Virus record (IMG/VR): IMGVR_UViG_3300027881_000008
Span: 1-64,000 of that record
DNA: 64,000 nucleotides
Strand: one strand, 5' to 3'
Source of the DNA: a virus
A program made the position numbers and the translations under genes. The notes below the pieces were generated by a model. It worked only from the letters and a program-made list of their open reading frames with translations, had not been told where the DNA came from and ran no database searches. Of the stretch, positions 12,932 through 33,598 are shown piece after piece (position 1 is the stretch's first letter; every line of letters starts with the position of its first letter).

Positions 12932-15343
12932 GTGTCTCGCCGAAGAGCGTTAGCAAAGAAAATTACGCGTAAACAGGCTCGCGCCTACGACCGCACCGTT
13001 CCCAATCCGATGGGCGTCACCGCCATCGCCGCGGTGAACGGCCCGGGTAGCTATGCCCGCCGCTACGAGGCCACTCGCCAGCTTCTTGAGCGCGAGCCCT
13101 CCAGCCGACGTCGCCCGGTTCGCCCCAACAAGGCCACGCGCCGGCGCATCAAGACTTGGGCCGAGTTCCAAAAGCTGGCGGCCGTGGCCAACGCTCCCCC
13201 CAAGAAGCGCCGGGCGATGTACAGGTCGTACCACCAGAAGCATACCGGCAGGCTCCCGCCCGCCTCGGCTTGGACAGAAGCGAAGCCCAAGGCGAAGCCC
13301 AAGGCGAAGCCCAAGGCCAAGGCCAAGGCCAAGCCCCGGGCGAAAGCGAAGCCCAAGCCTCGCGCAAAGGCTCCCTTGAAGCGAGCCAAGAAGCGCCAGA
13401 CGAAGGCCGATTGGGTGCGCATGAAGCGCCGCGAGAAGCCTGGCGCCAGCGACGAGCAACTGAACGCTTGGTGGAACAGCAAAAAAAGAGGAGACGAGCG
13501 TCAGCGGGCTATCAGGGCGTCCAAACAGGGGCGAGCAGCGGTTGCCCGCACTCCCGCTGGCCGTGAGGCCGCGCGTAGGAAGCGGATGCTGGGGGCGCAG
13601 AAGAAGACCGGCAAGAAGACCGGCAAGAAGACCGGCAAGAAGCGCCAAACGAAGGCCGACTGGGAGCGCGCACAACGGCGCAAACACCCCGGGGTGAGCG
13701 ACAAGCAGCTCGCCGCCCGGTGGAAGTTGGGGCAGGCGTCCAAGAAGCGCTACGCAGCTTCAAAGCGCCAGCGAGCCGAGGCCAAGCGAAAGAAGCAGGT
13801 CCGGCGCTACGGCAAAGGAAAGTTCAAGGCCGCGCGAGCTCGCGTCGGCAGCGGGGTGCCCACCGACTACTGGACCTACATGTACCGGGACAAGGGCGGT
13901 CGTATGCGGAAGATCCCCGTGTGGGCGCTCGCTGGCTACAGCAGTAGCCGCGCCGCGCAGAAGGTACGAGACGAGGGAAGCCCACGCCGCCAAAGGGCGC
14001 TGGAGAAGCGTCTCGAAGCAATCCGAGTACGGCGGGACAAAGCGGTCGCCGTGGCGAAGAGACAGATCGAAAGAGGCACTGGCCGTTACGCCATGTTCTC
14101 ACCTAACCAAGAACGCACAATTACCTACGAGGAGTGGGAAGAAGACATGAGAGCAAACAGCCGGCGTCGCCGCCGTAAAAAGTCCACGAAGAAACGGCGC
14201 ACCCGTCGCGTTCGCCGCAATCCTGTCCACGCGAGCGCCCGCAAGGCTGCCCCCAAGCGCCGTCGCCGCCGTAAGGCGTCGACCCGCAAGGGAATGGTCC
14301 GCACCACGGCACGTCGAGCTTTCGAGTCGAATCGCCCGAAGCGTAAGCGCAAGCGCAAGAGCACCCGCAAGGGCATGGTGCGCCGCACCTCGCGTCGTGC
14401 GTATCGAAAGAACCAGGCCGCCACGTTCGGTGGGCGCTTCGTAGAGGTGCTTCAGATCGGTGGCGTGGTCGCAGTGGGCTTTGTTGTCCAGAAAGCTGCG
14501 ACCACCGGCATCGTGAAGGCAATCGGAGACAAGTTCCCCGAGAGCGTCTTGAAGTTCAAGGGCTCGCTCGTCGGTCTCGGCGTAGCTGCCGCCGGCGTGC
14601 TTATTGGGAGCGGGATGAAGTCCGCGGCGATGCAGAACTTCGCCGCTGGTATGGGCGCCGGCCTCGTGCACACGGTCGCGAAGGAGGCTCTGGCCGCTTT
14701 CGCCCCTGACTATGCCGACTACCTCGGTGCGCTTCCATCTCAGTACACGAACGCCGAAGGAAACCCGCAGTACAGCGGTTACGGCTCGTATTACGAGTTC
14801 AGCCCCCATCAGGTTTTTGATGGGGTCGGCGAGTACTACGAGACGGCTCCCGCGGCCGTTCCGACGAGCGGCTTCGGCCAGCTTCCCCAGCTCTACCAGG
14901 CTGCGGCGGCATACGGCCAGGCGCCTCCGGGAATCCCGCAGCTCACGCAACAGGCGGCCGGCTACGGCAACCTGGACGTGAACCAGCTCACGCAGGCGGC
15001 AGCTGGACTCGGCGCACCGATGCTCACCCAGGCCGCCGCAGGCGCCATGGGCGAGTATGTGGTGAGCGGAGGCAAAGGGATCGGCGAGTACGAGGAGGTC
15101 ACTCCTGAATACCAGAAGCCGACCACCACGGACGAGGGGATCCACCCCGACCTGACGAGCGCCGAATACGCGCTGTCGATTGCGGAAGCGGCGGCTGGCG
15201 TCGGCGCGTTCGGCGACAGCAACGTACCGCTGCAGAGCATCGTCAATCCAACCGGCCACCCCGAGGCCATCCCAGACATGCCAGGCGGCAGCCGAGCTGG
15301 CACCTTCGCTGGCCCCAACGGAGTCTTCGGACCCGGACACTGA
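12932..15343 (+). CDS. Very basic, membrane-anchored putative DNA-condensing core protein
   Basis: About 490 aa of K/R-rich sequence (AKPK and KKTG repeats, duplicated KKRQTKADW..PG.SD.QL.A.W, poly-Arg), then 2-3 hydrophobic helices, then an acidic G/A/Q tail with many G-phi-G motifs. Possible internal ATG at 14147. Confidence 0.7.
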   Translation: MSRRRALAKKITRKQARAYDRTVPNPMGVTAIAAVNGPGSYARRYEATRQLLEREPSSRRRPVRPNKATRRRIKTWAEFQKLAAVANAPPKKRRAMYRSYHQKHTGRLPPASAWTEAKPKAKPKAKPKAKAKAKPRAKAKPKPRAKAPLKRAKKRQTKADWVRMKRREKPGASDEQLNAWWNSKKRGDERQRAIRASKQGRAAVARTPAGREAARRKRMLGAQKKTGKKTGKKTGKKRQTKADWERAQRRKHPGVSDKQLAARWKLGQASKKRYAASKRQRAEAKRKKQVRRYGKGKFKAARARVGSGVPTDYWTYMYRDKGGRMRKIPVWALAGYSSSRAAQKVRDEGSPRRQRALEKRLEAIRVRRDKAVAVAKRQIERGTGRYAMFSPNQERTITYEEWEEDMRANSRRRRRKKSTKKRRTRRVRRNPVHASARKAAPKRRRRRKASTRKGMVRTTARRAFESNRPKRKRKRKSTRKGMVRRTSRRAYRKNQAATFGGRFVEVLQIGGVVAVGFVVQKAATTGIVKAIGDKFPESVLKFKGSLVGLGVAAAGVLIGSGMKSAAMQNFAAGMGAGLVHTVAKEALAAFAPDYADYLGALPSQYTNAEGNPQYSGYGSYYEFSPHQVFDGVGEYYETAPAAVPTSGFGQLPQLYQAAAAYGQAPPGIPQLTQQAAGYGNLDVNQLTQAAAGLGAPMLTQAAAGAMGEYVVSGGKGIGEYEEVTPEYQKPTTTDEGIHPDLTSAEYALSIAEAAAGVGAFGDSNVPLQSIVNPTGHPEAIPDMPGGSRAGTFAGPNGVFGPGH

Positions 15344-15483
15344 AACCACTGCGTCCGACGGGGAGCGAGCTGGCCTTACGCTCCTCGTCACATGGCGCAA
15401 ACAAAAACTAGGCCAGGGCCGTAGCGGAACCAGGCCGCTTTATCAACGGAAGCCCAGAGAGAACAGAGAACACCATCCCTAAA

Positions 15484-16278
15484 TTGACAAATGTGCGAGA
15501 GCGCGTCCATCAGCCCTTTCGCGATACCCTAGTGCGGACGGCCGGTACACAGACCGGTAACGTCAGTGACAACACCAAGCTGTTTACCGTTGCGGGTAAA
15601 CCAGAAGGTGCAACGAACTTGCCCAACGGATCGACGCTTCCAAGCGATCAGTCGTTCGTCGTGCTGGCTCTGCGCGTCTTCACATGGTTCCGCAACAGCA
15701 TCCAGCGTCCCATGCAGCAGGGCGCGGCCCCAGGCCGGCTCGTCATCCCGCTCCCCGACGGAACCACCATCTTCGCCGGCAACGGCGACTTCAACCTTCC
15801 CTTCGGCGGTGGCCCGGTCACCGGCGCTGCCTTCGCAGCCGTGCTGAACGGGCAGGGAATCGGAGACGTCAACGACGTTCACCGATTGAACTGGCAAGCT
15901 GAAGAGCAGCTCCTATGGAGCTACGGTGCGGGCGATAAATTCTCCCTCACATCCATGCCGTCAGCGTACTTCCCATATGGCGGCGGGCTTCACGGCCAAT
16001 TGCCCTGTTCGACGGATTTGATTCTGTGGAACAACGGCATGCCGTCCCAAGAGGGCATCTTGCGTCTGGCAAGAGCAATCTTGATTCCCCCGCGACAGAA
16101 TATCAAGGCGGAAGCCAACATTGCGCGCCTCGATACCGGCCCCAATGCGGCGACCCTCGCCACCACCCAGGGAGCGCGTGATATGTTCTCCCTTCGCGAC
16201 AACCTCAATGCCCCGGACCTCATCAACAAGGTTATTAGTCTGACCTTTGACGGCTTGTTCAGCCGCGACGTGCAGTGA
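15484..16278 (+). CDS. Candidate major capsid protein (single jelly-roll-like)
   Basis: Beta-strand-like segments (TNLPNGSTLPSDQSFVVLALRV, ILIPPRQNIKAE, ISLTFDG). Follows the core protein, has a long structured leader and a downstream terminator. Start may be ATC at 15475. The fold is inferred. Confidence 0.55.
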   Translation: MTNVRERVHQPFRDTLVRTAGTQTGNVSDNTKLFTVAGKPEGATNLPNGSTLPSDQSFVVLALRVFTWFRNSIQRPMQQGAAPGRLVIPLPDGTTIFAGNGDFNLPFGGGPVTGAAFAAVLNGQGIGDVNDVHRLNWQAEEQLLWSYGAGDKFSLTSMPSAYFPYGGGLHGQLPCSTDLILWNNGMPSQEGILRLARAILIPPRQNIKAEANIARLDTGPNAATLATTQGARDMFSLRDNLNAPDLINKVISLTFDGLFSRDVQ

Positions 16279-16392
16279 GCCGTTAGCAGCGCGCCCGTTT
16301 TATATGCAGCAGAAAAAAAGTAGCAGAACATAACGGCGCGTTGCGCCACACCAAGTCGCCCGGCCTGGCAAGCGCGGGGCCTATTTTCGGGT

Positions 16393-16429
16393 CCCGACCA
16401 AAACCGGGTCGGGCGCCTCGGTTTTTTTC
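16393..16429 (+). terminator. Intrinsic terminator with an overlapping alternative hairpin
   Basis: AAAACCGGG-N8-CTCGGTTTTTTT overlaps CCCGACC-N7-GGTCGGG. Confidence 0.5.
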
Positions 16430-16490: not shown

Positions 16491-17522
16491 ATGTACGGAA
16501 ACCAATACGACCCAGGCTTCGCCCAAGCAGTGCAGCAGCTGCGCGCAGAGATCAATCGCAACGCGGGCGGCCTTCGCAAGTACACCGACGAGCAGATGGC
16601 CAAGATGGTCGGACGCCTGGACGAGCTGAGCCGCGTGACCAGCGCCATGAGCGCCATCCGCTCGGGGGCCACCAAGGACCCGGGAGTGCGCCTCATCGAG
16701 GACATACCAGGGCGACGGGTGCCCTACGTCATGCTCGTAGATATACCCCTAGGTGCCGACACGACGAGCATTCGAGAAGGGTCCGTCACCATCTCTCAGG
16801 AGGGACCGTTCGTCGCCGTGCGTCGCATGGCCACCTTCCAGTCGGCCTACGAGTTCCAAGTCACCGACCCGGTGAGCAGCCAAGTGGCGCGTTTCGCAGG
16901 CCGGTCGTTCGGGCGCTACCGCCCCATTCACTCTGTCTGTGACACCAACGACAGTCAGCATAATGCGTGGTCCGACGCGAGCCGTTGGTACCTAGCGGCG
17001 CTCACCAACCCCGACGCGGTGCCAGGCCCCGCGGCCGAACTTCCCTCGGCTGCGCTCAGTCTTCCGAGCAACATGTCGAGCTTCCGCACCATGGAGTTCG
17101 ATGGGCGTATCAGCGTCATCAACGCTGGCTCGAGCTACCCCCGCCAGAACATCAGCGTGCCGTCTAGCTTCTGGGCCAGCGAGTGCAACAGTCCCGTCAC
17201 CCTAGGCGCTTTGGACTTCTTCGAGCGCGGTGAAGTGCTGACCGTTCGGGTTCAGCCCAACCATGTGTCGAATCCGCCAGCCGGAAACGTCGATGGCGAC
17301 TGCATCTTCCCTAACGCGGCGGCCCCAGGTTGGCCCTTTGTCGAGGGCCAGTACGACTCGCACGAAGGGATTTGTACTCCCGACGCAAGCACCCTCGCTA
17401 CCATCCGACCGTTTGAGCCAGCCCTCATCGCCAACGACCCCGTGGCCCGGCTTCCTGACGGTATCCTCACTATCGCATGGGAAGGCTACCGAATCATTCA
17501 GCCTGTTGGGCCGGTTGGATGA
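16491..17522 (+). CDS. Candidate second capsid/penton protein (N-terminal coil plus beta-rich domain)
   Basis: AAGGAG RBS; GSVTISQEGPFVAV, FFERGEVLTVRVQP and LTIAWEGYR beta-type segments. Confidence 0.5.
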   Translation: MYGNQYDPGFAQAVQQLRAEINRNAGGLRKYTDEQMAKMVGRLDELSRVTSAMSAIRSGATKDPGVRLIEDIPGRRVPYVMLVDIPLGADTTSIREGSVTISQEGPFVAVRRMATFQSAYEFQVTDPVSSQVARFAGRSFGRYRPIHSVCDTNDSQHNAWSDASRWYLAALTNPDAVPGPAAELPSAALSLPSNMSSFRTMEFDGRISVINAGSSYPRQNISVPSSFWASECNSPVTLGALDFFERGEVLTVRVQPNHVSNPPAGNVDGDCIFPNAAAPGWPFVEGQYDSHEGICTPDASTLATIRPFEPALIANDPVARLPDGILTIAWEGYRIIQPVGPVG

Positions 17523-18304
17523 GCCATATCCTCGACCGCCGTGCGCCGGAGCAGTTCATCCGTGAGCTGTCCCAAGAGGCGCGCCTCGTCCGTCAGGGCG
17601 CGGCAGGACAGGAGGCCGGCCCCCCAGGGCTCGGTCCCGAGCCTGCGGTGGTCCATCAGCCGGGGGGCGAGCTCCTCAACAAAATCCAAGACCCGGCGTT
17701 CGATACGGTCGAGCATCTTTTTCGGGCGCTCCCCGAGGACAGTTGGTTCTCCCCTACCACCTCGACCAAGCGCCCCATCAAGTTCGAGTTCGGCGTCTTC
17801 ACCGTTCCCCAGAGCCAGTATTTTCTGGTGACCGACTACGAGTTCGTGGCGCTTCGGCAGAGCGGCATCGACCCCTTCGACTTCATGCAGGCGGCGCCGT
17901 ACCGCTTCAGCGGCTTCATGGGGTTCGACATCACGCTCGATGGCCGGCGCGTGAGTAACCTCATGTACCAGCTCGACCCCGCCCCAGTGCAGTTCTTCCG
18001 TCAGGCGTTCGCGTCGCCCTTCGATCCTCGCGCGCCCGCCGCGAGCTTCAACCAAGCTGCGGCCAACAGCTTCGGCGCCGTGGCCGGCGAGGGCACGTCG
18101 CTCTTGCCCGTCCGCCCCAACGTACAGGGAAGCCGGAACATGCCCTTCACCATGATCGCCGAGCCTGGCACCAAGGTTGCGCTCTCGTGCGTCATCTTCC
18201 GCCGCGTGACTGCCGCTCTCGCGGGCCTCCAGGCGAGCGTGTCTGGCTACTCGATCCACGCCAACACTATGAGCGCACTGCTCAACCGAATGAGGCCCAG
18301 ATGA
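17519..18304 (+). CDS. Candidate third jelly-roll-like structural protein
   Basis: FEFGVFTVPQSQYFLVTDYEF, IAEPGTKVALSC and ASVSGY; ATGA-coupled. Confidence 0.5.
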   Translation: MSHILDRRAPEQFIRELSQEARLVRQGAAGQEAGPPGLGPEPAVVHQPGGELLNKIQDPAFDTVEHLFRALPEDSWFSPTTSTKRPIKFEFGVFTVPQSQYFLVTDYEFVALRQSGIDPFDFMQAAPYRFSGFMGFDITLDGRRVSNLMYQLDPAPVQFFRQAFASPFDPRAPAASFNQAAANSFGAVAGEGTSLLPVRPNVQGSRNMPFTMIAEPGTKVALSCVIFRRVTAALAGLQASVSGYSIHANTMSALLNRMRPR

Positions 18305-18528
18305 TGCAAGTAGGACCGCCGCCGCGAGGGTTTTATGGGATGGGAACCGACCCGCTTCTGCCGGGAGTCGTCCTCCCTGACTTGCCCGGTTACGTGACCG
18401 AGGAAAAATGTTCTGCGGCCCAGTTGTCGGCTGAAGAAAAAGCCAAGGGCAGCGTGCTTCCCTGGGCGATTGGCGCCGGAGTCGGCGCCCTGGTTCTAGG
18501 ACTCGCCATAGGAAGGATGAGCAAGTGA
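18301..18528 (+). CDS. Small tail-anchored membrane protein
   Basis: FYGMG motif; C-terminal TM helix followed by RMSK; paralog of the next gene (PGYVT). Confidence 0.7.
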   Translation: MMQVGPPPRGFYGMGTDPLLPGVVLPDLPGYVTEEKCSAAQLSAEEKAKGSVLPWAIGAGVGALVLGLAIGRMSK

Positions 18529-18965
18529 TGTACGGACTTGGAGAAAATGGAGCGCCTCCGGGCGGACCACCACCGCCCCCCACCCCCGGTGCCCCACCGG
18601 CCATACCCACGCCGATCCCCGGGGCCACGGACCAGGCGAGCTGCGCGCAGCACGGCGGAACCTGGCAGGGACTCCCCCCGCCTGCGCCGCCGGGAATGGG
18701 CGTGTGTCTATCGGGCGCGTTGCCCCCCATTCCTGGGGCTCCCCCCGTACCAGGTGGCCTTCCGGCTCTTCCTCCGGGAGTCCAGAAGCCGGAGATCCCG
18801 GGATACGTGACGAAGGAGCACTTAGCCGCGTCGCTTCAGGGCGCCGCCACGCAGTGCAACACCGCGCGCGCCGAATCCAGGCGCATGTCCATCTACGTGG
18901 CCGTTGGTGTCGGCTTGGCGGGCGTGCTCATCGGTGCCGTCGTCGGAAAGAACATGAAGAAGTGA
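18525..18965 (+). CDS. Pro-rich tail-anchored membrane protein
   Basis: MYGLG, Cys pair, PGYVT, TM helix followed by KNMKK. Confidence 0.75.
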   Translation: MMYGLGENGAPPGGPPPPPTPGAPPAIPTPIPGATDQASCAQHGGTWQGLPPPAPPGMGVCLSGALPPIPGAPPVPGGLPALPPGVQKPEIPGYVTKEHLAASLQGAATQCNTARAESRRMSIYVAVGVGLAGVLIGAVVGKNMKK

Positions 18966-19098
18966 GATTGACGAGCCGCAAGAGCCGGGCCCTCGGTTTG
19001 GTGTTCCGGGGGCTGTCCGCAAAAGTGATGGCCTTCCTCAGCCGCTCCGGCCGGGAGCTCGACTCTTGCGGCTCGTCGAAACACGCGGGGGAGGCGTA

Positions 19099-20037
19099 AT
19101 GTACCGCGGCATAGGCCGGCCGCTGGGCGCGACCACGCGGGGCCTCGGTGCCCGAGAGTGGGACGACGTCCAGGAGTGGTGTCCTGGGGTGTTTGTGGAG
19201 TCCGAGAAGGACTTCTGTCCTTTTTCGCGCGCGCTTTGGTCGACCGACGAGGTCTACGTCATGCGCTTCCATGTTACTGGACTCGACGGAGGCATTCAGA
19301 CGGCCTCCCAGGGGCTCAGGTGGGCGAACGCTTACGGCAACACGCTCATGACGGCGTGCCTGCCCTTCGGCTGTCCTTCCATCGAACGCCAAGACGTCAA
19401 GGGGATCGTGTTTGACAGTCAGGGCGGACCGGGCGTCTACGGCGTCGACCTCGTCGTGACCACGCAGGAGGGCGGTGCGCCCGTCTTTGGTCAGCGGGGG
19501 GTGGAAGCTACCGTTAAGATGCTCAACAAGGACCCGGACCTGCTCAGCGTCTGGCCGAATTTGCACGTAAACGACTTCCAGCCTCTTCTGATGCTCGACG
19601 AGACGGCAGCGCAGAAGGCTAGGATCACCGACTGGCGCGCAGCGCCGACGGTTTGGAGCTGGGAGCTTTGGGAACAGAACGAGGACGCGCCCGAGAGGAC
19701 CAGGGGAAAGACCGACGCCTACGGAAAAGGCGAAGGGGTCTGGCTCGGTGGGACGGCGGCGCACCCCCAGGCGCGGCTCAAGCCCAAGGCGCCCACCCCC
19801 GTCGGTCCTCCCACGCCCAAACCTCCCACGCCCAAACCTCCCACGCCCAAGCCTCCCACGCCCAAGCCTCCCGAGCCGGGACCGTTGCCTTCCAAGGCCG
19901 GCCTCAACGCGGGCACCGTTGCGGGGGTCGCCCTGGTCGCCGGGGTTGGATGGTTCGCTTTCGGCACACGTATTCGAGACCACCTGAGTGGCAAGAAGCA
20001 AAAGGAAAAACAGCATGTCCTACAAAAGCCTTGGTAA
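19099..20037 (+). CDS. Tail-anchored protein with globular head and (PTPKP)n stalk
   Basis: MYRGIG..RGLG; 15-nt repeats at 19807-19872; TM helix and basic tail. Confidence 0.75.
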   Translation: MYRGIGRPLGATTRGLGAREWDDVQEWCPGVFVESEKDFCPFSRALWSTDEVYVMRFHVTGLDGGIQTASQGLRWANAYGNTLMTACLPFGCPSIERQDVKGIVFDSQGGPGVYGVDLVVTTQEGGAPVFGQRGVEATVKMLNKDPDLLSVWPNLHVNDFQPLLMLDETAAQKARITDWRAAPTVWSWELWEQNEDAPERTRGKTDAYGKGEGVWLGGTAAHPQARLKPKAPTPVGPPTPKPPTPKPPTPKPPTPKPPEPGPLPSKAGLNAGTVAGVALVAGVGWFAFGTRIRDHLSGKKQKEKQHVLQKPW

Positions 20038-20689: not shown

Positions 20690-20695
20690 GAAAGA

Positions 20696-20923: not shown

Positions 20924-20924
20924 T

Positions 20925-24604: not shown

Positions 24605-24616
24605 TGAAGGAGTGAG

Positions 24617-26620: not shown

Positions 26621-27003
26621 CGAAACGCCGTGCCGAGCTAAAGGATAGTCTGCGCGCAGCGGCCATGTTCCGCGTGTTCCAGCCACTGGACGCGGCGGGG
26701 ATCGCGCCGGTTCCCGCACCCATAGGCGTCACCAACTGGGCGGTCTTCGACATCGAGGGATATACGCCCTCGGACGCCGTTGTGACACGCCTCGACGAGC
26801 TGGGAATAGCGACTCTCGATTACGAGCCCCAGCGCGACGACGCCGAGGCGCCTGACGACTTCGACGACTCAGACGCGGCGATTGAAGCGCTTTTGGACGG
26901 TTGGTGGCTGTGCGTCGTGCCCGATACTCTGCGGTCTCCCTATTCCCGCCTCCTGGTGGTGGAGCGGGTGACCCCACCTTCCCGCATAGGAGCGAAACCG
27001 TGA
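26617..27003 (+). CDS. Hypothetical acidic protein
   Basis: GTGA coupling on both sides. Confidence 0.55.
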   Translation: MTKRRAELKDSLRAAAMFRVFQPLDAAGIAPVPAPIGVTNWAVFDIEGYTPSDAVVTRLDELGIATLDYEPQRDDAEAPDDFDDSDAAIEALLDGWWLCVVPDTLRSPYSRLLVVERVTPPSRIGAKP

Positions 27004-27527
27004 AGTACGAATTGTTTTACGCGACCGGCGGCCATGGCGGTCCCTACGAGGGAAAGGCCGCGGCCTTGGAGGCAGCACGCAGACTCGTCGGCGGTGCTAA
27101 CGGCAGCTACATCGACGTCGTCCCCTACTCCCAGCCCTGGGAAGCGACCCCGGTGCGTGACCTGCACCTCCTGCGGGGTGTCGAGCGCGTGTACGCTGCA
27201 CCTGACGGCTGGTATTCTGAGGAGTACGAGACTCTAGCCGACAAGATGTTCGCGGAGCGGAACCCAGGCGCGAGAGCGGCGGAGTCCATCTACGTCATGA
27301 AGGCCGGGGAGGGCAACTACTACGCTCGCCGCACCACCAAGCCTCCGAAGTACCTGCGCTGGGAGTTGCAGCTACCCGACCCGCGCTCGTGGGGAGGCGG
27401 GATGAAAAGGGCGCACTACCGCCCGGCCGGCGGAAAGCTCTACTCACGCTCCGGTCTCAGCGCGCGCTTCGAGACCCTCAAAGAGATTAAGAAAGCCTAC
27501 CCCGGCGACTGGCGGAAGGTCCAATGA
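27000..27527 (+). CDS. Hypothetical two-part protein (RNP linker)
   Basis: AGGAG RBS, GTG at 27000. Confidence 0.55.
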   Translation: MKYELFYATGGHGGPYEGKAAALEAARRLVGGANGSYIDVVPYSQPWEATPVRDLHLLRGVERVYAAPDGWYSEEYETLADKMFAERNPGARAAESIYVMKAGEGNYYARRTTKPPKYLRWELQLPDPRSWGGGMKRAHYRPAGGKLYSRSGLSARFETLKEIKKAYPGDWRKVQ

Positions 27528-27802
27528 CCTACTCCCACCAGCAGCAGCAGCAGCACCAGCCCTACGGCCAAATCCCTGGTCTCCCCGTCCCCGGCGCTCC
27601 GGTGGGGGACGAGGTCTTGAAGGACGTCTCGGTGCGAGCGTTCGAGCATATCTGGCCGCTAATGGAGACGCGCCTCGACGAGAAGCTCGCGCGGGAGCGG
27701 TACGTGACGTTTGCGATGAGCGGGCTCGCCATGGCGGGATATTTTGCACTGCTGTGGGCGGTGGGCGTCAAGCTCCCGTGGCAGCGGAAATGGCGACGAT
27801 AG
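27524..27802 (+). CDS. Small membrane protein
   Basis: Q-rich N-terminus (PYG); TM helix followed by RKWRR. Confidence 0.6.
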   Translation: MTYSHQQQQQHQPYGQIPGLPVPGAPVGDEVLKDVSVRAFEHIWPLMETRLDEKLARERYVTFAMSGLAMAGYFALLWAVGVKLPWQRKWRR

Positions 27803-28192
27803 ATGGCATCGTACCGACCCAACTACTGGAACAACTACCCCGAGCCTTTCTACGCGGACTGGCAGCAGGAACCGATCCCCGGGTGGGGCGCCCGCCCGGT
27901 CATGGCGGGCCCAGCTCGCGTGGGGGTGGGCGCCATGATCAGCTTGGCCAAAGAGCAGAAGCTTTCGTCGCACCTTACGTTGGCCAGGATAAAGCCCCAC
28001 ACGTTGGCCAGGATAAATCCCCACGCGATTGTGCGGCTGCCCGGATTCGTGGGAAAGCCGCCGGCCGACGAGGGAGGAGGCGGAACCACCCCTTCAGAGC
28101 CGTCGTCCGGTCTGCGCTGGTTTATCGCGGGTGCGCTCGTCTTGTCGGTCGGCGGCATCGGCTTCTACCGTGGATGGAAGGGAAAGCGATGA
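27803..28192 (+). CDS. Small tail-anchored protein
   Basis: RVGVG motif; TLARIxPH duplication; TM helix followed by KGKR. Confidence 0.65.
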   Translation: MASYRPNYWNNYPEPFYADWQQEPIPGWGARPVMAGPARVGVGAMISLAKEQKLSSHLTLARIKPHTLARINPHAIVRLPGFVGKPPADEGGGGTTPSEPSSGLRWFIAGALVLSVGGIGFYRGWKGKR

Positions 28193-29550
28193 GCTACCAG
28201 GGGATAGGCGCGCCGCCGGGGATGACACTGCTAGGCGGCGGCGCTGGCGCAGTAGGGCGCCGTGACCTCGGCGCAGTCGATGACCGGCCGGGGATGGCAC
28301 TGCTAGGCGGCGGCGCTGGCGCAGGCTGTTCGCTCGGGTACGAGCTGTCGGGGATGGACCCGCAGAGCGCTTCGTGCCCCGGGGGCGGTTGCGACTCGGA
28401 TTATTGCTGCTCTCCCCGAGACTGGCGCGACTCGGTTTATTGGAAGCTCAAGGGCGCGGTAAACTACGCGTACTTTCAAGAGGCATCTATCCGCAAATCT
28501 CTCTACCAGCTCCTCGACGTCCCTACCCCCACCGGGTTTCCGAGTCGTCTGGACGAGTACGCCTACGACGCCTGCGGGGACGAAGAGGGCCCAGCCTTTA
28601 CGCAGAGTCTCGAGGCGCTGCGGGCGCGCCTCAAGCGCGCCGGGTTTAACCTGTGGAATATCTTGCCCCCCGACCGCTGGTCCCGCGAAAAGAAAGGGGT
28701 GCGCTCGGAGTGCCAGAGCGACGGCTGGCTCAGCCAGATGCGTGCTCCCTATCCCTACAAGATCAGCGGCGGGGGCTTCATGGCGCGGTTGGCCTACTGG
28801 CGCGACGGCCCCATCGAGGGAGAGCGGGCGAAGTCCGTCTACAACGTTACGGGCGGCCATCCTGGCGCCTTCAAGGACTGGCTGGCCGACAAGGCGATTC
28901 CCCTGATCGCGACTTCGCCGACGAGCACTCGTATCGAGAACTCGTCCTTCAACCCGGATGGATACGACTCTGGCGGCGACCCTAGGTGGAAGGCCAAGGC
29001 GCCGTGGGCGCTGGTGGACCGTTGGATAGGCACCACCGCGCCGGCAGAGATAGCCCCGCTCATGCTCACCTGCGGTCCCAACTCCCGCCTGGGGGGCTGC
29101 TCCGGGTGCGAGGCCCCACCCGACCGTTGGGCGGCGCAGCACGGCGGCGACCCAGGCAACCGAGTCACGATGCGCGATATGGGGAAAGCCCCCTCGATGC
29201 GCTGGTGGGCTCGCTTCTTGGACGTGTTCGCCCCTTTGCCCGACGTGGGCTGGGAGCCTGCGACGAAGGCCGGTCGCGCTGCCCAACAAAGCCGCTTCGT
29301 TCTCGCTAAAACGCCGGGGCGGGTGGCGGCCCACAGCGCTTCTCTTCCTTCGCTGATGGCGGTTAGGAAGCCAGCCCCTAGGTTCGTGGCTTCGGACGAA
29401 GGGATCGAGCGGCGCGTCGGGGGCGGCACCCCGCCGGCACCGCCGGGCAAAAGCGCCACACAAGGAGCTGTCCCATGGGTCCTGGCGGGACTTGTTGGGG
29501 CGGGCTTGGTTGGCGGCGGCGTGTGGTATTGGAGGAGCAGGGATGTATAG
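28189..29550 (+). CDS. Cys-rich tail-anchored protein, paralog A (spike/receptor-binding candidate)
   Basis: MSYQGIG; shares two near-identical blocks with the next gene; TM helix followed by WYWRSRDV. Confidence 0.75.
   Translation: MSYQGIGAPPGMTLLGGGAGAVGRRDLGAVDDRPGMALLGGGAGAGCSLGYELSGMDPQSASCPGGGCDSDYCCSPRDWRDSVYWKLKGAVNYAYFQEASIRKSLYQLLDVPTPTGFPSRLDEYAYDACGDEEGPAFTQSLEALRARLKRAGFNLWNILPPDRWSREKKGVRSECQSDGWLSQMRAPYPYKISGGGFMARLAYWRDGPIEGERAKSVYNVTGGHPGAFKDWLADKAIPLIATSPTSTRIENSSFNPDGYDSGGDPRWKAKAPWALVDRWIGTTAPAEIAPLMLTCGPNSRLGGCSGCEAPPDRWAAQHGGDPGNRVTMRDMGKAPSMRWWARFLDVFAPLPDVGWEPATKAGRAAQQSRFVLAKTPGRVAAHSASLPSLMAVRKPAPRFVASDEGIERRVGGGTPPAPPGKSATQGAVPWVLAGLVGAGLVGGGVWYWRSRDV
28513..28654 (+). 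repeat. 142-bp direct repeat (second copy at 29822-29963)
   Basis: Two mismatches by eye. A second, less identical block pairs about 29058-29250 with about 30608-30800. Confidence 0.9.
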
Positions 29551-31105
29551 AGCAGTGGGAAAGCCGCCAGGGGTCGGTTTGGGATCGTTTGGTCCCGGCA
29601 CCGCAGGCGCAGGCCCCGGCTGCAGCTTGGGCTACGAGAGGGGGGGGATGGAGCCCGAGAGCAAGGACTGCCCTACCGGGGGGTGCGACAGCGAGTTCGG
29701 CGACGCGAGGGACTGTTGCGGCGTCTCACATTGGCGAGATTCTGTCTACCACAGGATCAAGGGGGGGCAAGCCTATCAGTACTTCCAAGAGGCGGCCATT
29801 CGGAGGGCCCTTTACGACCTGCTCGACGTCCCTACCCCCACCGGGTTTCCGAGTCGTCTGGACGAGTACGCCTACGACGCTTGCGGGGACGAAGAGGGCC
29901 CAGCCTTTACGCAGAGTCTCGAGGCGCTGCGCGCGCGCCTCAAGCGCGCCGGGTTTAACCTGTTCTCGATCCTTCCCCATAGCCGATGGTTCGTGGACGC
30001 CACCGGGACCAAGAGTCCCAAAGCCATCGACGTCGTGCACTTGGCCCCGTGTAGCGACTCTCAAGAAGACGGCTGGTACAGCAAGCGTCGCGTGTACCCC
30101 TACCTGAACGACGACTTCGTTCGGGTCAAGGTGAAAGGAAACGACGGCAAGTACCGGTGGGTCGTGAAGCCTCGCGGCACGACGACGGAAAACAAGAAGT
30201 ATCCGTGGGACACGGGAGAAAGGGAAGGGGGGGAGCCCGTTTGCGCCCGGCAGGACGGGGGTTGGACCGCGCACCCCGCCATGTCCACCATACCCGGTGG
30301 GAGTAATCTGTTCGGCCCTGAAAACTCGGAACTCAAAAAGGGCTTCAAGAACCCCTGCATCGGGGGCGCGCCGACCGTCAACAAAGAGATGGCGATATTT
30401 AACGTCACGGGCGGCAAGCCGGCCAAGTTCTGGGACTGGTGGGAGGACTTCGGAAAACCCCTCATTCGTTTCTCCCCCATCAGCAGCAGGGAACACCACT
30501 ATGGGGGACACCGAGACGCCTCTGCGACGCCGCGCTGGAAAGCGTGGAACCCCGAGCAAACGGAGAAACGGTTCACGGGCACCGTAGGTCCGGCTGAGGT
30601 GGCCCACCTCATGCTCACCTGCGGGCCCAGTTCGCGCTATGGAGCCTGCTCCGGGTGCGAGGCGCCAGCCGACCGTTGGGCGGCGCAGCACGGCGGAGAC
30701 CCAGGCAACCGAGTCACGATGCGCGACATGGGGAAAGACATCTCGATGCGCTGGTGGTCGAGGTTCTTGGACGTTTTCGCCCCTATGCCTGACGTGGGCG
30801 GCGGCGCCCCGAAAATCGACACGAGCAAGCTGAAGGCCGGGCTGAAGTTGTTCACCGCGCCGAAGAAGGGAGCGACTGGGATTTCTATCCACGGGCAGAT
30901 CGCTCCAGGTGCATTAAAAGCTGCGAGCATGGCTGTTTCGAGGCGGCCTGCCCCGGTGTTAGTGGCCCACGACGAGGGCTCCGTAGACGCCCCTCCACTG
31001 CCCCCAGCGCCTGCTCCCAAAAGCAACGTCCCCTACATTCTGGGTGGCATCACGGCGGTCGGCCTGGTCAGCGTAGGGGTCTGGTATTGGAGGAAGGATG
31101 TATAA
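29543..31105 (+). CDS. Cys-rich tail-anchored protein, paralog B
   Basis: MYRAVG..GVGLG; same conserved blocks with a longer variable centre; TM helix followed by WYWRKDV. Confidence 0.75.
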   Translation: MYRAVGKPPGVGLGSFGPGTAGAGPGCSLGYERGGMEPESKDCPTGGCDSEFGDARDCCGVSHWRDSVYHRIKGGQAYQYFQEAAIRRALYDLLDVPTPTGFPSRLDEYAYDACGDEEGPAFTQSLEALRARLKRAGFNLFSILPHSRWFVDATGTKSPKAIDVVHLAPCSDSQEDGWYSKRRVYPYLNDDFVRVKVKGNDGKYRWVVKPRGTTTENKKYPWDTGEREGGEPVCARQDGGWTAHPAMSTIPGGSNLFGPENSELKKGFKNPCIGGAPTVNKEMAIFNVTGGKPAKFWDWWEDFGKPLIRFSPISSREHHYGGHRDASATPRWKAWNPEQTEKRFTGTVGPAEVAHLMLTCGPSSRYGACSGCEAPADRWAAQHGGDPGNRVTMRDMGKDISMRWWSRFLDVFAPMPDVGGGAPKIDTSKLKAGLKLFTAPKKGATGISIHGQIAPGALKAASMAVSRRPAPVLVAHDEGSVDAPPLPPAPAPKSNVPYILGGITAVGLVSVGVWYWRKDV

Positions 31106-32795
31106 AGGTATCTGGGTGCCGCCGGGGATGGGCGCGTACGACGACTCTCCCGACGAGGCGGACTGGGGACATCGCAAGGTGCCCTCGCCAGCCTACCCTT
31201 GGGACGGGTGGGACAAAACTGGCAAGCACCCTGACGCGGCGGACTTCGGCTACGACACCGCCTCGGCCTATAGCCTTCTTGACGACGGCTTCCTCAACGA
31301 ACAGACGAAGATCGCGCTACCCGGGATGCCAAACACCGGCGAGTTGATACAGCTGGTGGGACCACCTTCCCAGTCTGCGGTTCTCGGCGTCAGGTCGGCT
31401 CTCGAAGGGGCGACGGGGCTGCCCGTGGACAAGATCGCTTCTACCATGGGGGTCGACCTCGGCCTCATGGGGTCGATGGTGGGCAATCTGGTAAGAGGAG
31501 AGACCGAGGTCGCCCAACAACAGGCGCTCCAAATGGGAAAGGGGATCCTGAAGGCGGGGCTAGACCTCGCCTTTGGAAACATCCCAATCGTCGGGCAGAT
31601 CGTAGGGATCGCCGCCGACGTCGTGTTCGCTTTGCTGGGAAACGCGGCGAAGTTCCAAGCGGAAAAAATTCACAAGGCGACGCTCGATCAGGTGAGGAAA
31701 GAGCTGCAGAGCCGCTGCGACACGCTTTACTCGATAGGCCAAAATCCCGTGAAGACGGGGATCTCACTAGGGGACGGTTCCCTGATGGCCACGCCCTCCG
31801 ACTTGTTCCGCCCGGTGAGGGAAGCCTACGAATCTGGGAGCGGCGTATTGCCGATGACACCCGCGTCTGTCTACGTGCTCCTGTGCGGCGCGGAGAGCCA
31901 AGGGTTTGGCTTCTCCCGCCAGGAATGGGAACAAAAGAACGCGGGCTACGGCATCACAATACCGCCCCCGGTCCAGCGGCGGATGTGGAAGTGCATCAAA
32001 GCGATCTTCTCAGCGGTCCAACATCCCAGTGCGCAGTACGTTCCGGGCGACGGCGGCAAGTCGTCTTACATGGTCGTCCAAGAACTGGTGCGTACGCAGA
32101 GGGAGTCAAACAACTTCTCCGAAAGATCGATCTGGATGCTCGCCACCGAGCTCGCCGCCCGCGTCACCTATTGGCACCCTGACCCCAAGAAGGAAGAATG
32201 GGGCCCTTCAGGAGCCGGCGAGTACAACCGATACTACGGGGGAAACTGCTCCGGCACCGTGATGTGGCACGGCGCGGGCGGTCAGGGGGAGGAGTGCTTC
32301 AAGCGTGGCGGCTGCCAGACCCCCCAGGTGGTCTTCAAGAAGACGCGCGGGCGCTACATGGAGTGGGAGAAGGCCGAGAAAATCTCGGGCCCGACCGATT
32401 TCGCAGTAGCTCCTCTCGTGCGCGCCATAGCATCTCCTCAGACGGGCACCTTCTGGGTCGGTCAGGGCAAGTGGGCCGCGCTCATGCGCGAAGCTTACAG
32501 GGACCCCAAAAGCGGGCGCTTGGGCCTTTACCCGAACGAGAAGTTCGTGGCCGCACAGGGTCTCGACCAGCCCCGGGAGGCCAACAGCAAGCTGACTTTG
32601 AGCCTCGCGGGCACCCAACACCTCGTCATGAACCTGAAGAAGTCCATCGACGTTCAGGACGAGGGAGCCGAGGGGGAAGAGGAAGGCCCCAGCTTGGTTC
32701 CGTGGGTGTTGGGCACCGCCGTTCTTGGCACCGGAGCCTACTTCGGGGCCCGACAGCTGGGGCGGATGGGACGGAAAAAGGGCTGGGGGAGATAA
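31098..32795 (+). CDS. Large tail-anchored protein with an internal hydrophobic/amphipathic segment
   Basis: MYKGI..PPGMG; IPIVGQIVGIAADVVFALLG; C-terminal TM helix followed by RKK. Confidence 0.7.
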   Translation: MYKGIWVPPGMGAYDDSPDEADWGHRKVPSPAYPWDGWDKTGKHPDAADFGYDTASAYSLLDDGFLNEQTKIALPGMPNTGELIQLVGPPSQSAVLGVRSALEGATGLPVDKIASTMGVDLGLMGSMVGNLVRGETEVAQQQALQMGKGILKAGLDLAFGNIPIVGQIVGIAADVVFALLGNAAKFQAEKIHKATLDQVRKELQSRCDTLYSIGQNPVKTGISLGDGSLMATPSDLFRPVREAYESGSGVLPMTPASVYVLLCGAESQGFGFSRQEWEQKNAGYGITIPPPVQRRMWKCIKAIFSAVQHPSAQYVPGDGGKSSYMVVQELVRTQRESNNFSERSIWMLATELAARVTYWHPDPKKEEWGPSGAGEYNRYYGGNCSGTVMWHGAGGQGEECFKRGGCQTPQVVFKKTRGRYMEWEKAEKISGPTDFAVAPLVRAIASPQTGTFWVGQGKWAALMREAYRDPKSGRLGLYPNEKFVAAQGLDQPREANSKLTLSLAGTQHLVMNLKKSIDVQDEGAEGEEEGPSLVPWVLGTAVLGTGAYFGARQLGRMGRKKGWGR

Positions 32796-32819
32796 CCAAC
32801 CACCTGTAAGGAGCGAACA

Positions 32820-33062
32820 ATGAGCGAAAAAATGAACTGGATACAAAAGCTGTCACATAGGAAAGACCCGGGGCGAGACGCCTTCGACGCGGCCCAGAAG
32901 GCGGCCCAGGAGGCGGCCGGTAAGGCGCCTGTCCAAGAGGCCGAGGCTGACCCTGTCGTGGTAGCCGAGCCCGATCCGGCTCCCGAGCCCGAACCCCCAG
33001 TTGAGGTGGCGCCCGAGCCCGAGCCCGAAAAGCCCAAGCGCGGCAGGTCGCGAAGGCGGTGA
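32820..33062 (+). CDS. Small P/E-rich protein with basic tail
   Basis: AAGGAG RBS. Confidence 0.6.
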   Translation: MSEKMNWIQKLSHRKDPGRDAFDAAQKAAQEAAGKAPVQEAEADPVVVAEPDPAPEPEPPVEVAPEPEPEKPKRGRSRRR

Positions 33063-33598
33063 GTTACGTCGGAGTGGGCAAGCCCCCCGGCGGCGGTGGC
33101 CGTGGCGGCGGTGGCCGTGGCGGCGGTGGCCGTGGCGGTGGAGGGCACGCGGGTATGGGTCCCGGTCCTGGTCCTGGGCCGCATCCTGGGCCCCATCCTC
33201 ACCCTCACCCTCATCCCGGGCCCGGCCCCCATCCTCACCCGGGCCCTCACCACCGGCCTGGCTGGGGTAGGCGCCGTCGGCGGCTACGGTGGGGCGGCTA
33301 TGCGCCGCCTGGCTACTACGACACCACGCCGTGGTACTTCACAACCGGCGACCAGTGCAGCTACTACGGAGGCCGGAAACAATGCGTATTGGCGGGTCCC
33401 AACGACTACGGGGGCGACCCCTTCTGCGACCCTGGTTGGGTGAGGCGGTGCATCGTACCGCTCGGCAGTTGCGCCAGTCTGGGCGGGTACAAGCAGTGCA
33501 TCCCTCTCCTTGCCGGCGACCCGCCTGATCCTCTATGTCCAACCGGGAACTCACGCCAGTGCGTGCTCCCTCCGCTTCGAGGCGGCTACACATGGTAG
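33059..33598 (+). CDS. Gly/Arg- and Pro/His-repeat protein with two Cys-rich repeats
   Basis: MSYVGVG; (GGGGR)3; (PH)n; two C.S.GG.KQC...DP.C...R.C repeats. Confidence 0.65.
   Translation: MSYVGVGKPPGGGGRGGGGRGGGGRGGGGHAGMGPGPGPGPHPGPHPHPHPHPGPGPHPHPGPHHRPGWGRRRRRLRWGGYAPPGYYDTTPWYFTTGDQCSYYGGRKQCVLAGPNDYGGDPFCDPGWVRRCIVPLGSCASLGGYKQCIPLLAGDPPDPLCPTGNSRQCVLPPLRGGYTW

What the first reader, a model, noticed from the sequence alone, without database searches (positions are those of the whole stretch)
12932..33598. Apparently a large tailless, internal-membrane phage with a triplet of jelly-roll-like capsid genes
Seen: a ~20-kb coupled operon with no recognisable terminase, portal, HK97 capsid or tail genes. 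It has three adjacent 260-340-aa beta-rich proteins (15484-18304), followed by many small membrane proteins. PG-binding domains and an SLT indicate a bacterial host. Known: PRD1-, PM2- and P23-77/SH1-like viruses have jelly-roll capsids, internal membranes and many small membrane proteins, with genomes of roughly 10-30 kb. Inference: this genome is at least 64 kb and pairs that virion type with caudovirus-like replication, a repressor switch and anti-defence genes, which would be an unusual lineage. No A32/FtsK-like packaging ATPase is visible here; it may lie outside the window.
Basis: inference. Interest (0 to 1): 0.85.

Follow-up and report, generated by a model that had tools for sequence, protein, structure and literature searches.

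The report
Large tailless marine phage lineage
This 20-kb operon looks like the particle-building module of an undescribed group of large (136-298 kb) marine bacterial viruses. They appear to build a jelly-roll shell around a membrane and a protamine-like DNA core, and they have no recognisable tail, terminase, portal or packaging motor.

Summary
12932-33598 is a same-strand gene array with no Pfam or PHROG match except PG_binding_1 and one DnaJ domain. It opens with an 803-aa hyper-basic membrane protein. Three soluble proteins of 264, 343 and 261 aa follow, then about 19 genes, at least 14 of which encode proteins with a single C-terminal membrane anchor.

- **Genome.** The window is part of a 75-kb fragment. 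Five complete relatives (136-162 kb) and a 298-kb near-complete one keep the same four-gene core.
- **Missing hallmarks.** These genomes have no hit to the terminase and HK97-capsid profiles tried. The two closest complete relatives also lack portal, FtsK and A32 hits. No shared core gene has a Walker A motif.
- **Representation.** The 264-aa protein has no match in GenBank phages or plasmids, yet it and the 343-aa protein each have over 600 metagenomic homologues.

Best reading (about 0.6): an SPV1-like virion plan in a large bacterial virus. No particle, membrane or host is shown. First readers of this scan flagged the same gene trio on two other genomes.

The parts
12932..15343 (+). 803-aa tripartite protein. 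Residues 1-500 carry a net charge of about +140. Two hydrophobic helices follow at about 501-560, then an acidic or neutral tail with two G-x-Y-Y-E-[FT] motifs. Candidate DNA-condensing core protein anchored in a membrane.
   Evidence: Charge and hydrophobicity profile, conserved in the G001 (761 aa) and G004 (835 aa) homologues. A hyper-basic 410-954-aa protein lies upstream of the trio in every related locus. A promoter-like site lies at 12823-12850. No Pfam or PHROG hit.
15484..16278 (+). 264-aa single jelly-roll protein, candidate major capsid protein 1. It is one of the two most conserved genes of the lineage.
16406..16424 (+). Terminator-like hairpin with a T-run, between the 264-aa and 343-aa genes.
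   Evidence: Consensus scan. Region-wide, 10 sites were found against 6.0 +/- 2.8 expected, so this is a weak hint only.
16491..17522 (+). 343-aa protein: a long N-terminal helix (residues 8-54) followed by a single jelly roll. Candidate major capsid protein 2.
17519..18304 (+). 261-aa third conserved soluble protein, candidate third capsid, vertex or sub-capsomer protein. The probable start is the ATG at 17519, which overlaps the preceding stop codon.
   Evidence: Directly downstream of the 343-like gene in 20 of 25 related loci searched with a profile. Core gene in six genomes. 59 homologues. Not modelled here. The ESM Atlas's own model is weak (pTM 0.51), and the nearest named clusters carry PM2 P2_N/P2_C at 0.76, which is a lead only.
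18301..20037 (+). Three C-terminally anchored membrane proteins: 18301-18528, 18525-18965 and 19099-20037. Two begin M-Y-x-G-[IL]-G (18525-18965 after a GTG start codon).
   Evidence: Translations and hydrophobicity.
20015..22687 (+). Three membrane-anchored proteins with PG_binding_1 domains (20015-20689, 20925-21467, 21464-22687) and a small membrane protein (20696-20923). The first repeats the G-S-Y-Y-E-F...G-E-Y-Y-E-T peptide of the basic protein.
   Evidence: Pfam hits at E 9.8e-4, 6.6e-6 and 4.2e-4. Motif and TM positions.
22697..25990 (+). Four proteins of 208-404 aa, each with one C-terminal transmembrane helix and no known domain.
25997..26620 (+). 207-aa protein with a C-terminal DnaJ (J) domain. 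Conserved in G001 and G004. Candidate recruiter of host Hsp70 during assembly.
   Evidence: Pfam DnaJ, E 1.8e-9. Homologues in G001 and G004.
26581..28192 (+). Four small ORFs (26581-27003, 26901-27527, 27524-27802, 27803-28192). The last two are C-terminally anchored.
   Evidence: Gene calls are less certain here.
28192..31105 (+). Paralogous pair of Cys-rich, C-terminally anchored proteins. 28192-29550 begins M-S-Y-Q-G-I-G and 29543-31105 begins M-Y-R-A-V-G.
   Evidence: Long shared stretches are visible in the translations. No Pfam or PHROG hit.
31098..33598 (+). 565-aa protein (begins M-Y-K-G-I-W, with a C-terminal anchor), an 80-aa acidic/Pro-rich protein, and a 179-aa Gly/Pro/His- and Cys-rich protein (begins V-S-Y-V-G-V-G).
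   Evidence: The 565-aa protein has a G001 homologue.
1..6883 (-). Second part of the same module, outside the finding. It holds four genes conserved in G001 and G004: 6023-6883 (286 aa), 2975-5362 (795 aa), 2255-2881 (208 aa, invariant Cys/His/Asp) and 1-762 (C-terminally anchored, cut by the window edge). In G004 this block lies directly upstream of the basic-protein gene on the same strand.
   Evidence: Synteny. The 795- and 208-aa genes are core in six genomes. Invariant residues. No Pfam, PHROG or PDB match.

Best explanation
The operon is the virion-morphogenesis module of an undescribed lineage of large tailless dsDNA viruses of marine bacteria. Related genomes are 136-162 kb when complete, and one near-complete relative is 298 kb.

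Proposed working:
1. The 803-aa protein condenses the genome with its roughly 500-residue, +140-charge arm and is held in a membrane by two helices.
2. Its acidic tail, and the cytoplasm-facing domains of about 15 C-terminally anchored proteins, link that membrane to an outer shell.
3. The shell is built from two single jelly-roll proteins (264 and 343 aa), probably with the 261-aa protein at vertices or under the capsomers.
4. Because no packaging ATPase exists, the particle would assemble around a pre-condensed nucleoprotein, as described for the archaeal virus SPV1, rather than pump DNA into a procapsid.
5. PG-binding domains on membrane-anchored proteins would act at entry or exit through the bacterial wall.
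6. A core thiol enzyme may trim the shared N-terminal Y-x-G-[ILVM]-G motif.

Shown: the gene content, the conservation, the jelly-roll models and the absence of hits for the hallmark families searched. Inferred: the particle, the internal position of the membrane, the assembly order, protease cleavage and the host.
For: - **Synteny.** The order basic protein, 264-like, 343-like is kept in all 25 related loci, and a 275-like gene follows in 20 of them. This includes relatives so distant that the 343-aa profile scores only E 1e-6 to 1e-25.
- **Conservation.** The trio belongs to a core of only about ten genes shared by six genomes. The 264- and 343-aa genes are among the best conserved (57-59% identity to G001, where most other shared genes are at 25-47%).
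- **Missing hallmarks.** No TerL_ATPase, Terminase_6N, Phage_portal, Phage_capsid, FtsK or Pox_A32 hit in six-frame scans of G000-G004. No TerL_ATPase, Terminase_6N or Phage_capsid hit in G005-G008. Pfam scans of 113 of the 186 called G001 ORFs (nearly all those of 140 aa or more) found no morphogenesis family. No core gene has a Walker A motif.
- **Match to SPV1.** SPV1 has single jelly-roll VP4/VP10, an inner lipid layer, sub-capsomer membrane proteins, a basic-protein nucleoprotein core and no packaging ATPase (PMC8459092, PMC8812541).
- **Bacterial host signals.** PG_binding_1, an Amidase_2 endolysin, SLT and M15 peptidase domains, and enrichment of Shine-Dalgarno-like motifs (34 of 77 genes against 12.7 +/- 3.2 at random positions).
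- **Candidate fibres.** G004 carries five collagen-repeat proteins.
- **Occurrence.** Near-identical DNA is held by seawater and marine metagenome runs of at least ten studies.
Against: - No particle, lipid or host has been observed. Everything rests on metagenomic sequence.
- Jelly rolls are also common in non-viral carbohydrate-binding and TNF/C1q-like proteins, and such proteins appear in the same hit lists (TasA, C1q, PHM).
- The three proteins show no sequence relation to each other or to any solved structure.
- Absence of an ATPase or terminase rests on Pfam-level sensitivity and a Walker A pattern, so a very divergent motor could be missed.
- PG-binding domains N-terminal to a C-terminal anchor followed by basic residues would normally face the periplasm. 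That fits host-envelope proteins as well as virion-membrane proteins.
Confidence: 0.6

Rival explanations
1. It is a virus with a jelly-roll capsid, but the many anchored membrane proteins are not virion components. They would sit in the host cytoplasmic membrane, with PG-binding domains in the periplasm, and serve replication-factory anchoring, superinfection exclusion, envelope remodelling or egress. Alternatively they would form an outer envelope rather than an inner membrane.
For: The topology argument: a C-terminal helix followed by Lys/Arg-rich tails, with PG_binding_1 domains N-terminal to the anchor. The membrane proteins are poorly conserved between G000, G001 and G004, as is typical of host-interaction genes. 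No lipid evidence exists.
Against: These genes lie in one co-directional array directly behind the capsid-like trio in G000, G001 and G004. The hyper-basic protein itself has membrane helices in most loci, which ties the DNA-binding part to a membrane. Most of these proteins have no signal peptide that would export their large N-terminal domains.
Confidence: 0.17
2. It is not a virus but a large circular extrachromosomal element, a plasmid-like replicon that a classifier labelled viral. The jelly-roll proteins would be envelope, adhesin or compartment proteins, and the operon would build a cell-surface or vesicle-based apparatus.
For: No known virus hallmark gene is found. The replicons are circular or permuted, with a core tyrosine recombinase. 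G001 carries a histidine kinase, a response regulator, TnpB and methyltransferases. Jelly rolls occur in cellular proteins.
Against: No conjugation, partition or plasmid replication family appeared in the Pfam scans of G001. tblastn with the 264-aa protein found no match in 72,556 plasmids. A motif-based scan of one genome per species for the 343-aa family confirmed only three MAG contigs. An endolysin is present. A +140-charge protein next to the two most conserved jelly-roll genes is hard to explain outside DNA encapsidation.
Confidence: 0.13
3. It is a tailed phage whose terminase, portal and HK97 capsid genes are too divergent for the profiles used. The trio would then be accessory proteins such as decoration, cement or fibre proteins.
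For: Jelly-roll cement and tail-fibre domains of tailed phages appear among the weaker structural matches (KHP40 cement, Pam1, phage 7-7-1 fibre). IMG/VR-derived taxon labels in the ESM Atlas say Uroviricota.
Against: From general knowledge, TerL is among the most conserved phage genes and is normally detectable in jumbo phages. Here two TerL profiles and the capsid profile are silent in seven complete or near-complete genomes, and the portal profile is silent in the two complete ones it was run on. No Walker A protein is shared across genomes. No tail family was found among 113 G001 proteins. No PHROG matches any of 20 module or flanking proteins, apart from one glycosyltransferase.
Confidence: 0.05

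Closest known systems
Portogloboviridae (Sulfolobus polyhedral virus 1, SPV1)
   Different: SPV1 infects hyperthermophilic archaea and has a 20-kb genome. This lineage has 136-298 kb, bacterial wall-directed domains and marine occurrence. There is no sequence similarity. The basic protein here is 410-954 aa and membrane-anchored, which is not reported for VP1 in the profile read (PMC8459092). Three conserved shell-candidate genes stand in place of VP4 and VP10.
Halopanivirales / Helvetiavirae (P23-77, IN93, SH1, HHIV-2, HCIV-1)
Double jelly-roll membrane phages (PRD1/Tectiviridae, PM2/Corticoviridae, Autolykiviridae)
   Different: Each protein here models as one barrel, not two. There is no A32-like ATPase. 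Genomes are about ten times larger. No sequence or Pfam relation to P3 or P2 was found; the PM2 P2 lead for the third protein scores only 0.76 in the Atlas.
Core-protein condensation and thiol-protease maturation in adenoviruses and nucleocytoviruses (functional analogy only, from general knowledge)
   Same: Basic core proteins condense dsDNA inside a jelly-roll shell. A papain-type protease cuts virion precursors at Gly-containing motifs. Here the parallels are a core 208-aa protein with invariant Cys/His/Asp and a recurrent N-terminal Y-x-G-[ILVM]-G motif.
   Different: Those are eukaryotic viruses with double jelly-roll capsids and A32-type ATPases. No homology was tested or claimed, and cleavage here is untested.

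Membership tests
Portogloboviridae-like (SPV1-type) virions | Shell protein with the VP4-type single jelly-roll fold | tested here: inconclusive
Portogloboviridae-like (SPV1-type) virions | No genome-packaging ATPase; genome condensed by a basic nucleocapsid protein | tested here: met
   No FtsK_SpoIIIE or Pox_A32 hit in G000-G004. No Walker A motif in any core gene of six genomes. A hyper-basic protein is encoded upstream of the trio in all 25 loci. That it condenses DNA is inferred.
Portogloboviridae-like (SPV1-type) virions | Archaeal (Sulfolobales) host, about 20-kb circular genome | tested here: not met
   Genomes are 136-298 kb. They carry PG_binding_1, Amidase_2, SLT and M15 domains that act on bacterial peptidoglycan.
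Halopanivirales / Helvetiavirae | Two adjacent genes for different vertical single jelly-roll major capsid proteins | tested here: inconclusive
Halopanivirales / Helvetiavirae | FtsK/HerA-superfamily packaging ATPase | tested here: not met
   PF01580 and PF04665 are silent in six-frame scans of G000-G004, two of them complete. No P-loop protein lies in or near the module or in the six-genome core. Caveat: sensitivity is at profile and motif level.
Bamfordvirae (PRD1, PM2 and other double jelly-roll viruses) | Major capsid protein with two jelly-roll barrels in one chain | tested here: not met
   Each model has a single beta-sandwich. Double jelly-roll capsid proteins align through one barrel only (for example PRD1 P3 residues 256-384). 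The third protein was not modelled.
Caudoviricetes (tailed phages) | Large terminase, portal and HK97-fold capsid protein | tested here: not met
   PF03354, PF03237 and PF05065 are silent in G000-G008. PF04860 is silent in G000-G004. Pfam on 113 G001 proteins found none. Only these profiles were used, and no fold test of all proteins was made.
Membrane-containing virion (any family) | Lipid bilayer in the particle | not testable with these tools
   The only support is the abundance of single-pass membrane proteins in the module and the membrane helices in the basic protein.

The most novel reading that the evidence does not exclude
These genomes represent a family- to realm-level group of bacterial viruses that has no cultured or described member. 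It would combine jumbo-range genomes (136-298 kb) with an ATPase-free, SPV1-like build: jelly-roll shell, membrane, and a membrane-anchored protamine-like nucleoprotein core. It would be the first bacterial counterpart of portogloboviruses and by far the largest tailless prokaryotic virus. It would also show that genomes well above 100 kb can be encapsidated without a packaging motor.
Probability: 0.4. Interest if true: 0.92.

Novelty: new variant of a known kind. Interest (0 to 1): 0.82.

Why it matters
From general knowledge, known tailless prokaryotic dsDNA viruses have genomes below about 50 kb, and all known large phages are tailed and use a terminase-portal motor. If this lineage is what it seems, four things follow.

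- It breaks that size limit.
- It extends the SPV1-type plan, a jelly-roll shell over a membrane-wrapped nucleoprotein with no motor, from hyperthermophilic archaea to marine bacteria.
- It offers a testable case of motor-free encapsidation of 140-300 kb of DNA.
- It bears on the origin of jelly-roll capsids. PMC8812541 places SPV1 at the base of the single jelly-roll capsid branch.

The group is not rare. The 264- and 343-aa capsid-candidate proteins each have more than 600 metagenomic homologues, and near-identical DNA occurs in seawater data from at least ten studies. Yet tblastn with the 264-aa protein finds nothing in the 50,697 GenBank phage records searched, and PHROGs has no family for any of the 20 module and flanking proteins scanned apart from one glycosyltransferase. 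Marker-based surveys would therefore label it wrongly as a tailed phage or not name it at all.

Tried and rejected
- **Pfam and PHROGs on the operon and on flanking or core proteins.** The only hits were PG_binding_1, DnaJ, NUDIX, GT4, SLT, DnaB and Toprim.
- **PDB sequence searches.** Searches with the 343-aa profile, the distant-homologue profile, the 795-, 449- and 208-aa proteins and the 208-aa profile gave nothing. The only strong rows were an artefact on designed Kelch repeats.
- **hhalign between the three families.** No relation was found. A shared P-R-Q-N-I pentapeptide between the 264- and 343-aa families scored probability 1.4%.
- **Foldseek against PDB and BFVD.** No match reached E<=0.001. 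The best BFVD row is an unnamed viral protein, I1ZBH9 (E 8.9e-3), which I could not identify.
- **Complex prediction, 343-aa (residues 60-343) with 264-aa.** The verdict was 'no answer', so it says nothing either way.
- **ESM Atlas on the 795-aa protein.** Only unnamed viral clusters came back.
- **blastn of the trio against GenBank phages.** No match.
- **The search for related loci with P0363 alone** found nothing, and alignment A6 was too diverse to seed a scan.
- **Read laying.** Only Logan contigs were available. An RNA run holds short pieces on the 264- and 343-aa genes at 93-98% likeness, but DNA carry-over cannot be excluded and contigs cannot rank genes, so I do not count it as expression evidence.
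- **Host.** The genome-contig scan found only three MAG contigs, binned under Gemmatimonadota, Methanomicrobiales and Pseudomonadota. These are mutually inconsistent, so no host is assigned. Three coded 'organism' labels hold near-identical DNA, but their names are hidden.
- **Literature.** Five full-text searches found no description of such a lineage. This does not prove that none exists.

Full report
**What is in the window**

The window is the first 64,000 bases of a 75,008-bp linear IMG/VR record that CheckV rates 52% complete. It has 66% G+C. From 12932 to 33598 every plausible gene lies on the + strand, with short gaps or overlapping stop/start codons.

Pfam finds only three PG_binding_1 domains, one above and two below the curated cut-off, and one DnaJ domain. 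PHROGs finds nothing for the ten largest products.

The array opens with an 803-aa protein. Its first 500 residues carry a net charge of about +140. Two hydrophobic helices and an acidic tail follow. Next come three soluble proteins of 264, 343 and 261/275 aa. After them come about 19 genes, at least 14 of whose products have a single hydrophobic helix near the C-terminus.

At least 11 of those products begin with, or carry within their first 25 residues, a motif close to M-(S)-Y-x-G-[ILVM]-G. No protein outside the array has it near its start. Similar N-termini (MYGLG, MYTGVG, MSYRGVG) are seen in the equivalent genes of two distant relatives.

The one correction is that the SLT domain lies outside the stated range, at 39948-40874 on the - strand.

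**The rest of the contig and complete relatives**

The remaining 11 kb of the record encodes an Amidase_2/PG_binding_1 endolysin, an SNF2 helicase with DUF6011 and a GP88-like protein. It has no morphogenesis hallmark.

The 343-aa protein led to four related IMG/VR records. Two of them, G001 (143,727 bp) and G004 (136,226 bp), have terminal overlaps of 123 bases and are rated complete. Overlaps of 123 or 127 bases in four records look like assembly overlaps of circular or permuted genomes.

Six-frame profile scans of the window's record and these relatives found no TerL_ATPase, Terminase_6N, Phage_portal, Phage_capsid, FtsK_SpoIIIE or Pox_A32. The same searches rang in control genomes.

I scanned 113 of the 186 ORFs I called in G001, nearly all those of 140 aa or more, against Pfam. 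The hits were helicases, a DnaG-type primase, methyltransferases, GT4 glycosyltransferases, PG_binding_1, M15 and SLT wall enzymes, DnaJ, MoxR, TnpB, a histidine kinase and response regulator, an integrase-family recombinase and a PD-(D/E)XK nuclease. No capsid, portal, terminase, tail or packaging family appeared.

G004 carries a block of five collagen-repeat proteins and a GDSL-domain protein, which could be fibres.

**The three proteins**

The 264- and 343-aa proteins each have more than 630 homologues at E<=1e-3 in the 5.8-billion-protein collection. None is named and none has a Pfam domain. The third protein has 59. Profile-profile comparison finds no relation among the three, and the 343-aa profile has no relative of known structure by sequence.

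AlphaFold2 with 48-sequence alignments gave two models:
- 264-aa protein: a confident single beta-sandwich (pLDDT 78, pTM 0.77).
- 343-aa protein: a weaker model with a long N-terminal helix followed by a beta-sandwich (pLDDT 62, pTM 0.54).

An exhaustive structural comparison with 48,161 PDB representatives put the same entry first for both models. That entry is the capsid of Sulfolobus polyhedral virus 1:

Re-alignment of Foldseek's candidates for the 343-aa model gave this order: SPV1 8.6, SH1 7.2, P23-77 VP16-VP17 7.1, HCIV-1 6.9, HHIV-2 6.8, P23-77 VP17 6.7. Single barrels of double jelly-roll capsid proteins came next.

The Atlas's own model is weak, and its nearest named clusters (PM2 P2) score 0.76, which is only a lead.

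**How deep the module goes**

A profile search of 1.84 billion representatives found 128 clusters at 50% identity. Among them are proteins of 210-270 aa that keep the motifs I-E-D-I-P-G-[KR], S-Q-D-G-P-F and G-Y-K-I-L together with the N-terminal helix.

In IMG/VR these distant forms again sit on large records of 116-298 kb. Four of those are complete or 90% complete: 152,857, 159,872, 161,502 and 297,749 bp. They too lack TerL_ATPase, Terminase_6N and Phage_capsid hits.

Profiles of the three families, run on 25 loci, show the same order everywhere. The 264-like gene lies upstream, the 343-like gene next, and in 20 of the 25 a detectable 275-like gene follows directly. Every locus also has a 410-954-aa protein with net +72 to +135 per 300 residues upstream on the same strand, mostly with hydrophobic helices behind the basic part.

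I clustered the proteins of six genomes: this fragment and five complete ones. The shared core is only about ten genes:
- the trio;
- a 795-aa protein;
- a 208-aa protein;
- a 449-aa glycosyltransferase (phrog_2170, E 9e-9);
- a 175-aa protein whose G001 homologue is a GDSL hydrolase;
- a tyrosine recombinase;
- one further gene that lies outside this fragment.

The basic protein should be added to this list, although BLAST cannot align it. None of the core genes has a Walker A motif. The P-loop proteins that each genome does have are helicases or AAA+ proteins, and they are not shared across all genomes.

In G004 the block that corresponds to window 1-6883 lies directly upstream of the basic-protein gene on the same strand. 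That block holds the 286-, 795-, 208- and 254-aa genes. It therefore belongs to the same module.

**Reading**

The simplest account is a virion module built on the plan described for SPV1. That plan has single jelly-roll shell proteins, a lipid layer with sub-capsomer membrane proteins, a basic-protein nucleoprotein core and no packaging ATPase (PMC8459092; PMC8812541). Here it appears in viruses of bacteria with genomes seven to fifteen times larger.

Bacterial hosts are indicated by domains that act on peptidoglycan and by Shine-Dalgarno enrichment.

The basic protein's layout suggests a tether between DNA, membrane and shell: a DNA-binding arm, membrane helices and an acidic tail. The tail carries a peptide that is repeated in a PG-binding membrane protein.

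The 208-aa core protein keeps an invariant D-C-D...H-V...D-x-V-A-G pattern. I read this as a Cys/His/Asp thiol enzyme. It could process the shared N-terminal Gly motif, in the way papain-type proteases mature adenovirus and poxvirus particles. This is my inference from general knowledge. Pfam and PDB searches are silent on this protein.

A terminator-like hairpin after the 264-aa gene would fit higher expression of that gene, but the scan is not significant overall.

**What is not shown**

There is no particle, no lipid and no host. The internal position of the membrane, the assembly order, protease cleavage and the role of the third protein are inferences.

The rivals I consider are:
- a jelly-roll virus whose membrane proteins act in the host envelope or form an outer envelope (0.17);
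- a non-viral replicon (0.13);
- a tailed phage with unrecognisable hallmarks (0.05).

**Occurrence and novelty**

Near-identical DNA is held by seawater and marine metagenome runs of at least ten studies, and by runs under three coded organism labels. One of those runs holds a relative about 97-98% identical over 12932-27933.

tblastn with the 264-aa protein finds nothing in 50,697 GenBank phage records or 72,556 plasmids. A motif-based scan of one genome per prokaryotic species for the 343-aa family confirmed only three MAG contigs, binned under mutually inconsistent phyla. Five literature searches found no description.

First readers of this scan noted the same trio on two other genomes and the motifs on this one. 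Those notes were unchecked leads. I tested the trio's synteny, the basic protein's architecture, the repeated peptide and the Gly motif myself.

Noticed in passing
window 2255-2881 (-): A 208-aa core protein present in all six genomes compared. It has invariant D-C-D, H-V and D-x-V-A-G positions, that is a Cys/His/Asp triad, and looks like a papain- or transglutaminase-type thiol enzyme. Pfam, PHROGs and PDB sequence searches are silent. It is a candidate maturation protease.
   Followed up: partly
window 18301-33598 (+), N-termini of at least 11 products: A recurrent N-terminal motif close to M-(S)-Y-x-G-[ILVM]-G on otherwise unrelated, mostly C-terminally anchored proteins. No protein outside the operon in this record has it near its start. 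Similar N-termini occur in the equivalent genes of G001 and G004. It may be a cleavage or sorting signal.
   Followed up: partly
window 14783-14860 and 20070-20160 (approx.): The peptide G-S-Y-Y-E-F-S-P-H-Q-V-F-D-G-V-G-E-Y-Y-E-T-A-P occurs in the tail of the 803-aa basic protein and, one and a half times, near the N-terminus of the PG-binding protein 20015-20689. The G001 basic protein keeps one G-S-Y-Y-E-F.
   Followed up: partly
window 15475-15486: Homologues of the 264-aa protein begin M-A-K-L-T-N-V. Here the equivalent codons read ATC CCT AAA TTG, so the conserved N-terminus has no canonical start codon at its first position. Either the TTG at 15484 or a non-standard ATC start is used.
   Followed up: no
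L017:3027-14858 (G004 43-55 kb, - strand): Seven consecutive large genes. Five encode collagen triple-helix repeat proteins and one an 856-aa protein with a GDSL lipase/esterase domain. They are possible virion fibres. The neighbouring gene has homologues at the ends of the G001 record.
   Followed up: partly
window 35803-38918 (+): Two consecutive glycosyltransferase genes. The first (449 aa) is a core gene of all six genomes (phrog_2170). The second carries GT4 domains, including the 'GT4-conflict' family. They may glycosylate virion proteins or modify the host surface.
   Followed up: partly
window 59863-63459 (+): A 1198-aa protein with a tyrosine-recombinase domain at residues 359-534. 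It is a core gene. The homologues in G001 and G004 are equally long (1222 and 1249 aa), but those in G005, G006 and G008 are only about 350 aa, so the extra roughly 650 C-terminal residues are specific to one sub-lineage.
   Followed up: no
window 28192-31105 (+): Two adjacent paralogous Cys-rich membrane-anchored proteins (452 and 520 aa) that share long near-identical stretches. This looks like a recent tandem duplication within the module.
   Followed up: no
L005:7632-9792 (+): One relative (G003, a 38-kb fragment) has two tandem copies of the 264-like gene ahead of the 343-like gene.
   Followed up: no
L012 (G001 100-120 kb) and other G001 loci: The complete relative G001 carries a TnpB/IS605-type gene, a histidine kinase with a response regulator, a bpMoxR AAA+ protein and a deoxynucleotide monophosphate kinase. 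No DNA polymerase family appeared in the Pfam scans of G001.
   Followed up: no
window 12932-27933, run X6: A run filed under a coded organism name rather than a metagenome label holds contigs about 97-98% identical to the module at about 10-12x depth. Its longest record is 140,133 bases. Two further coded organisms in other studies also hold the stretch. If these are cultures or holobionts they could point to the host.
   Followed up: no
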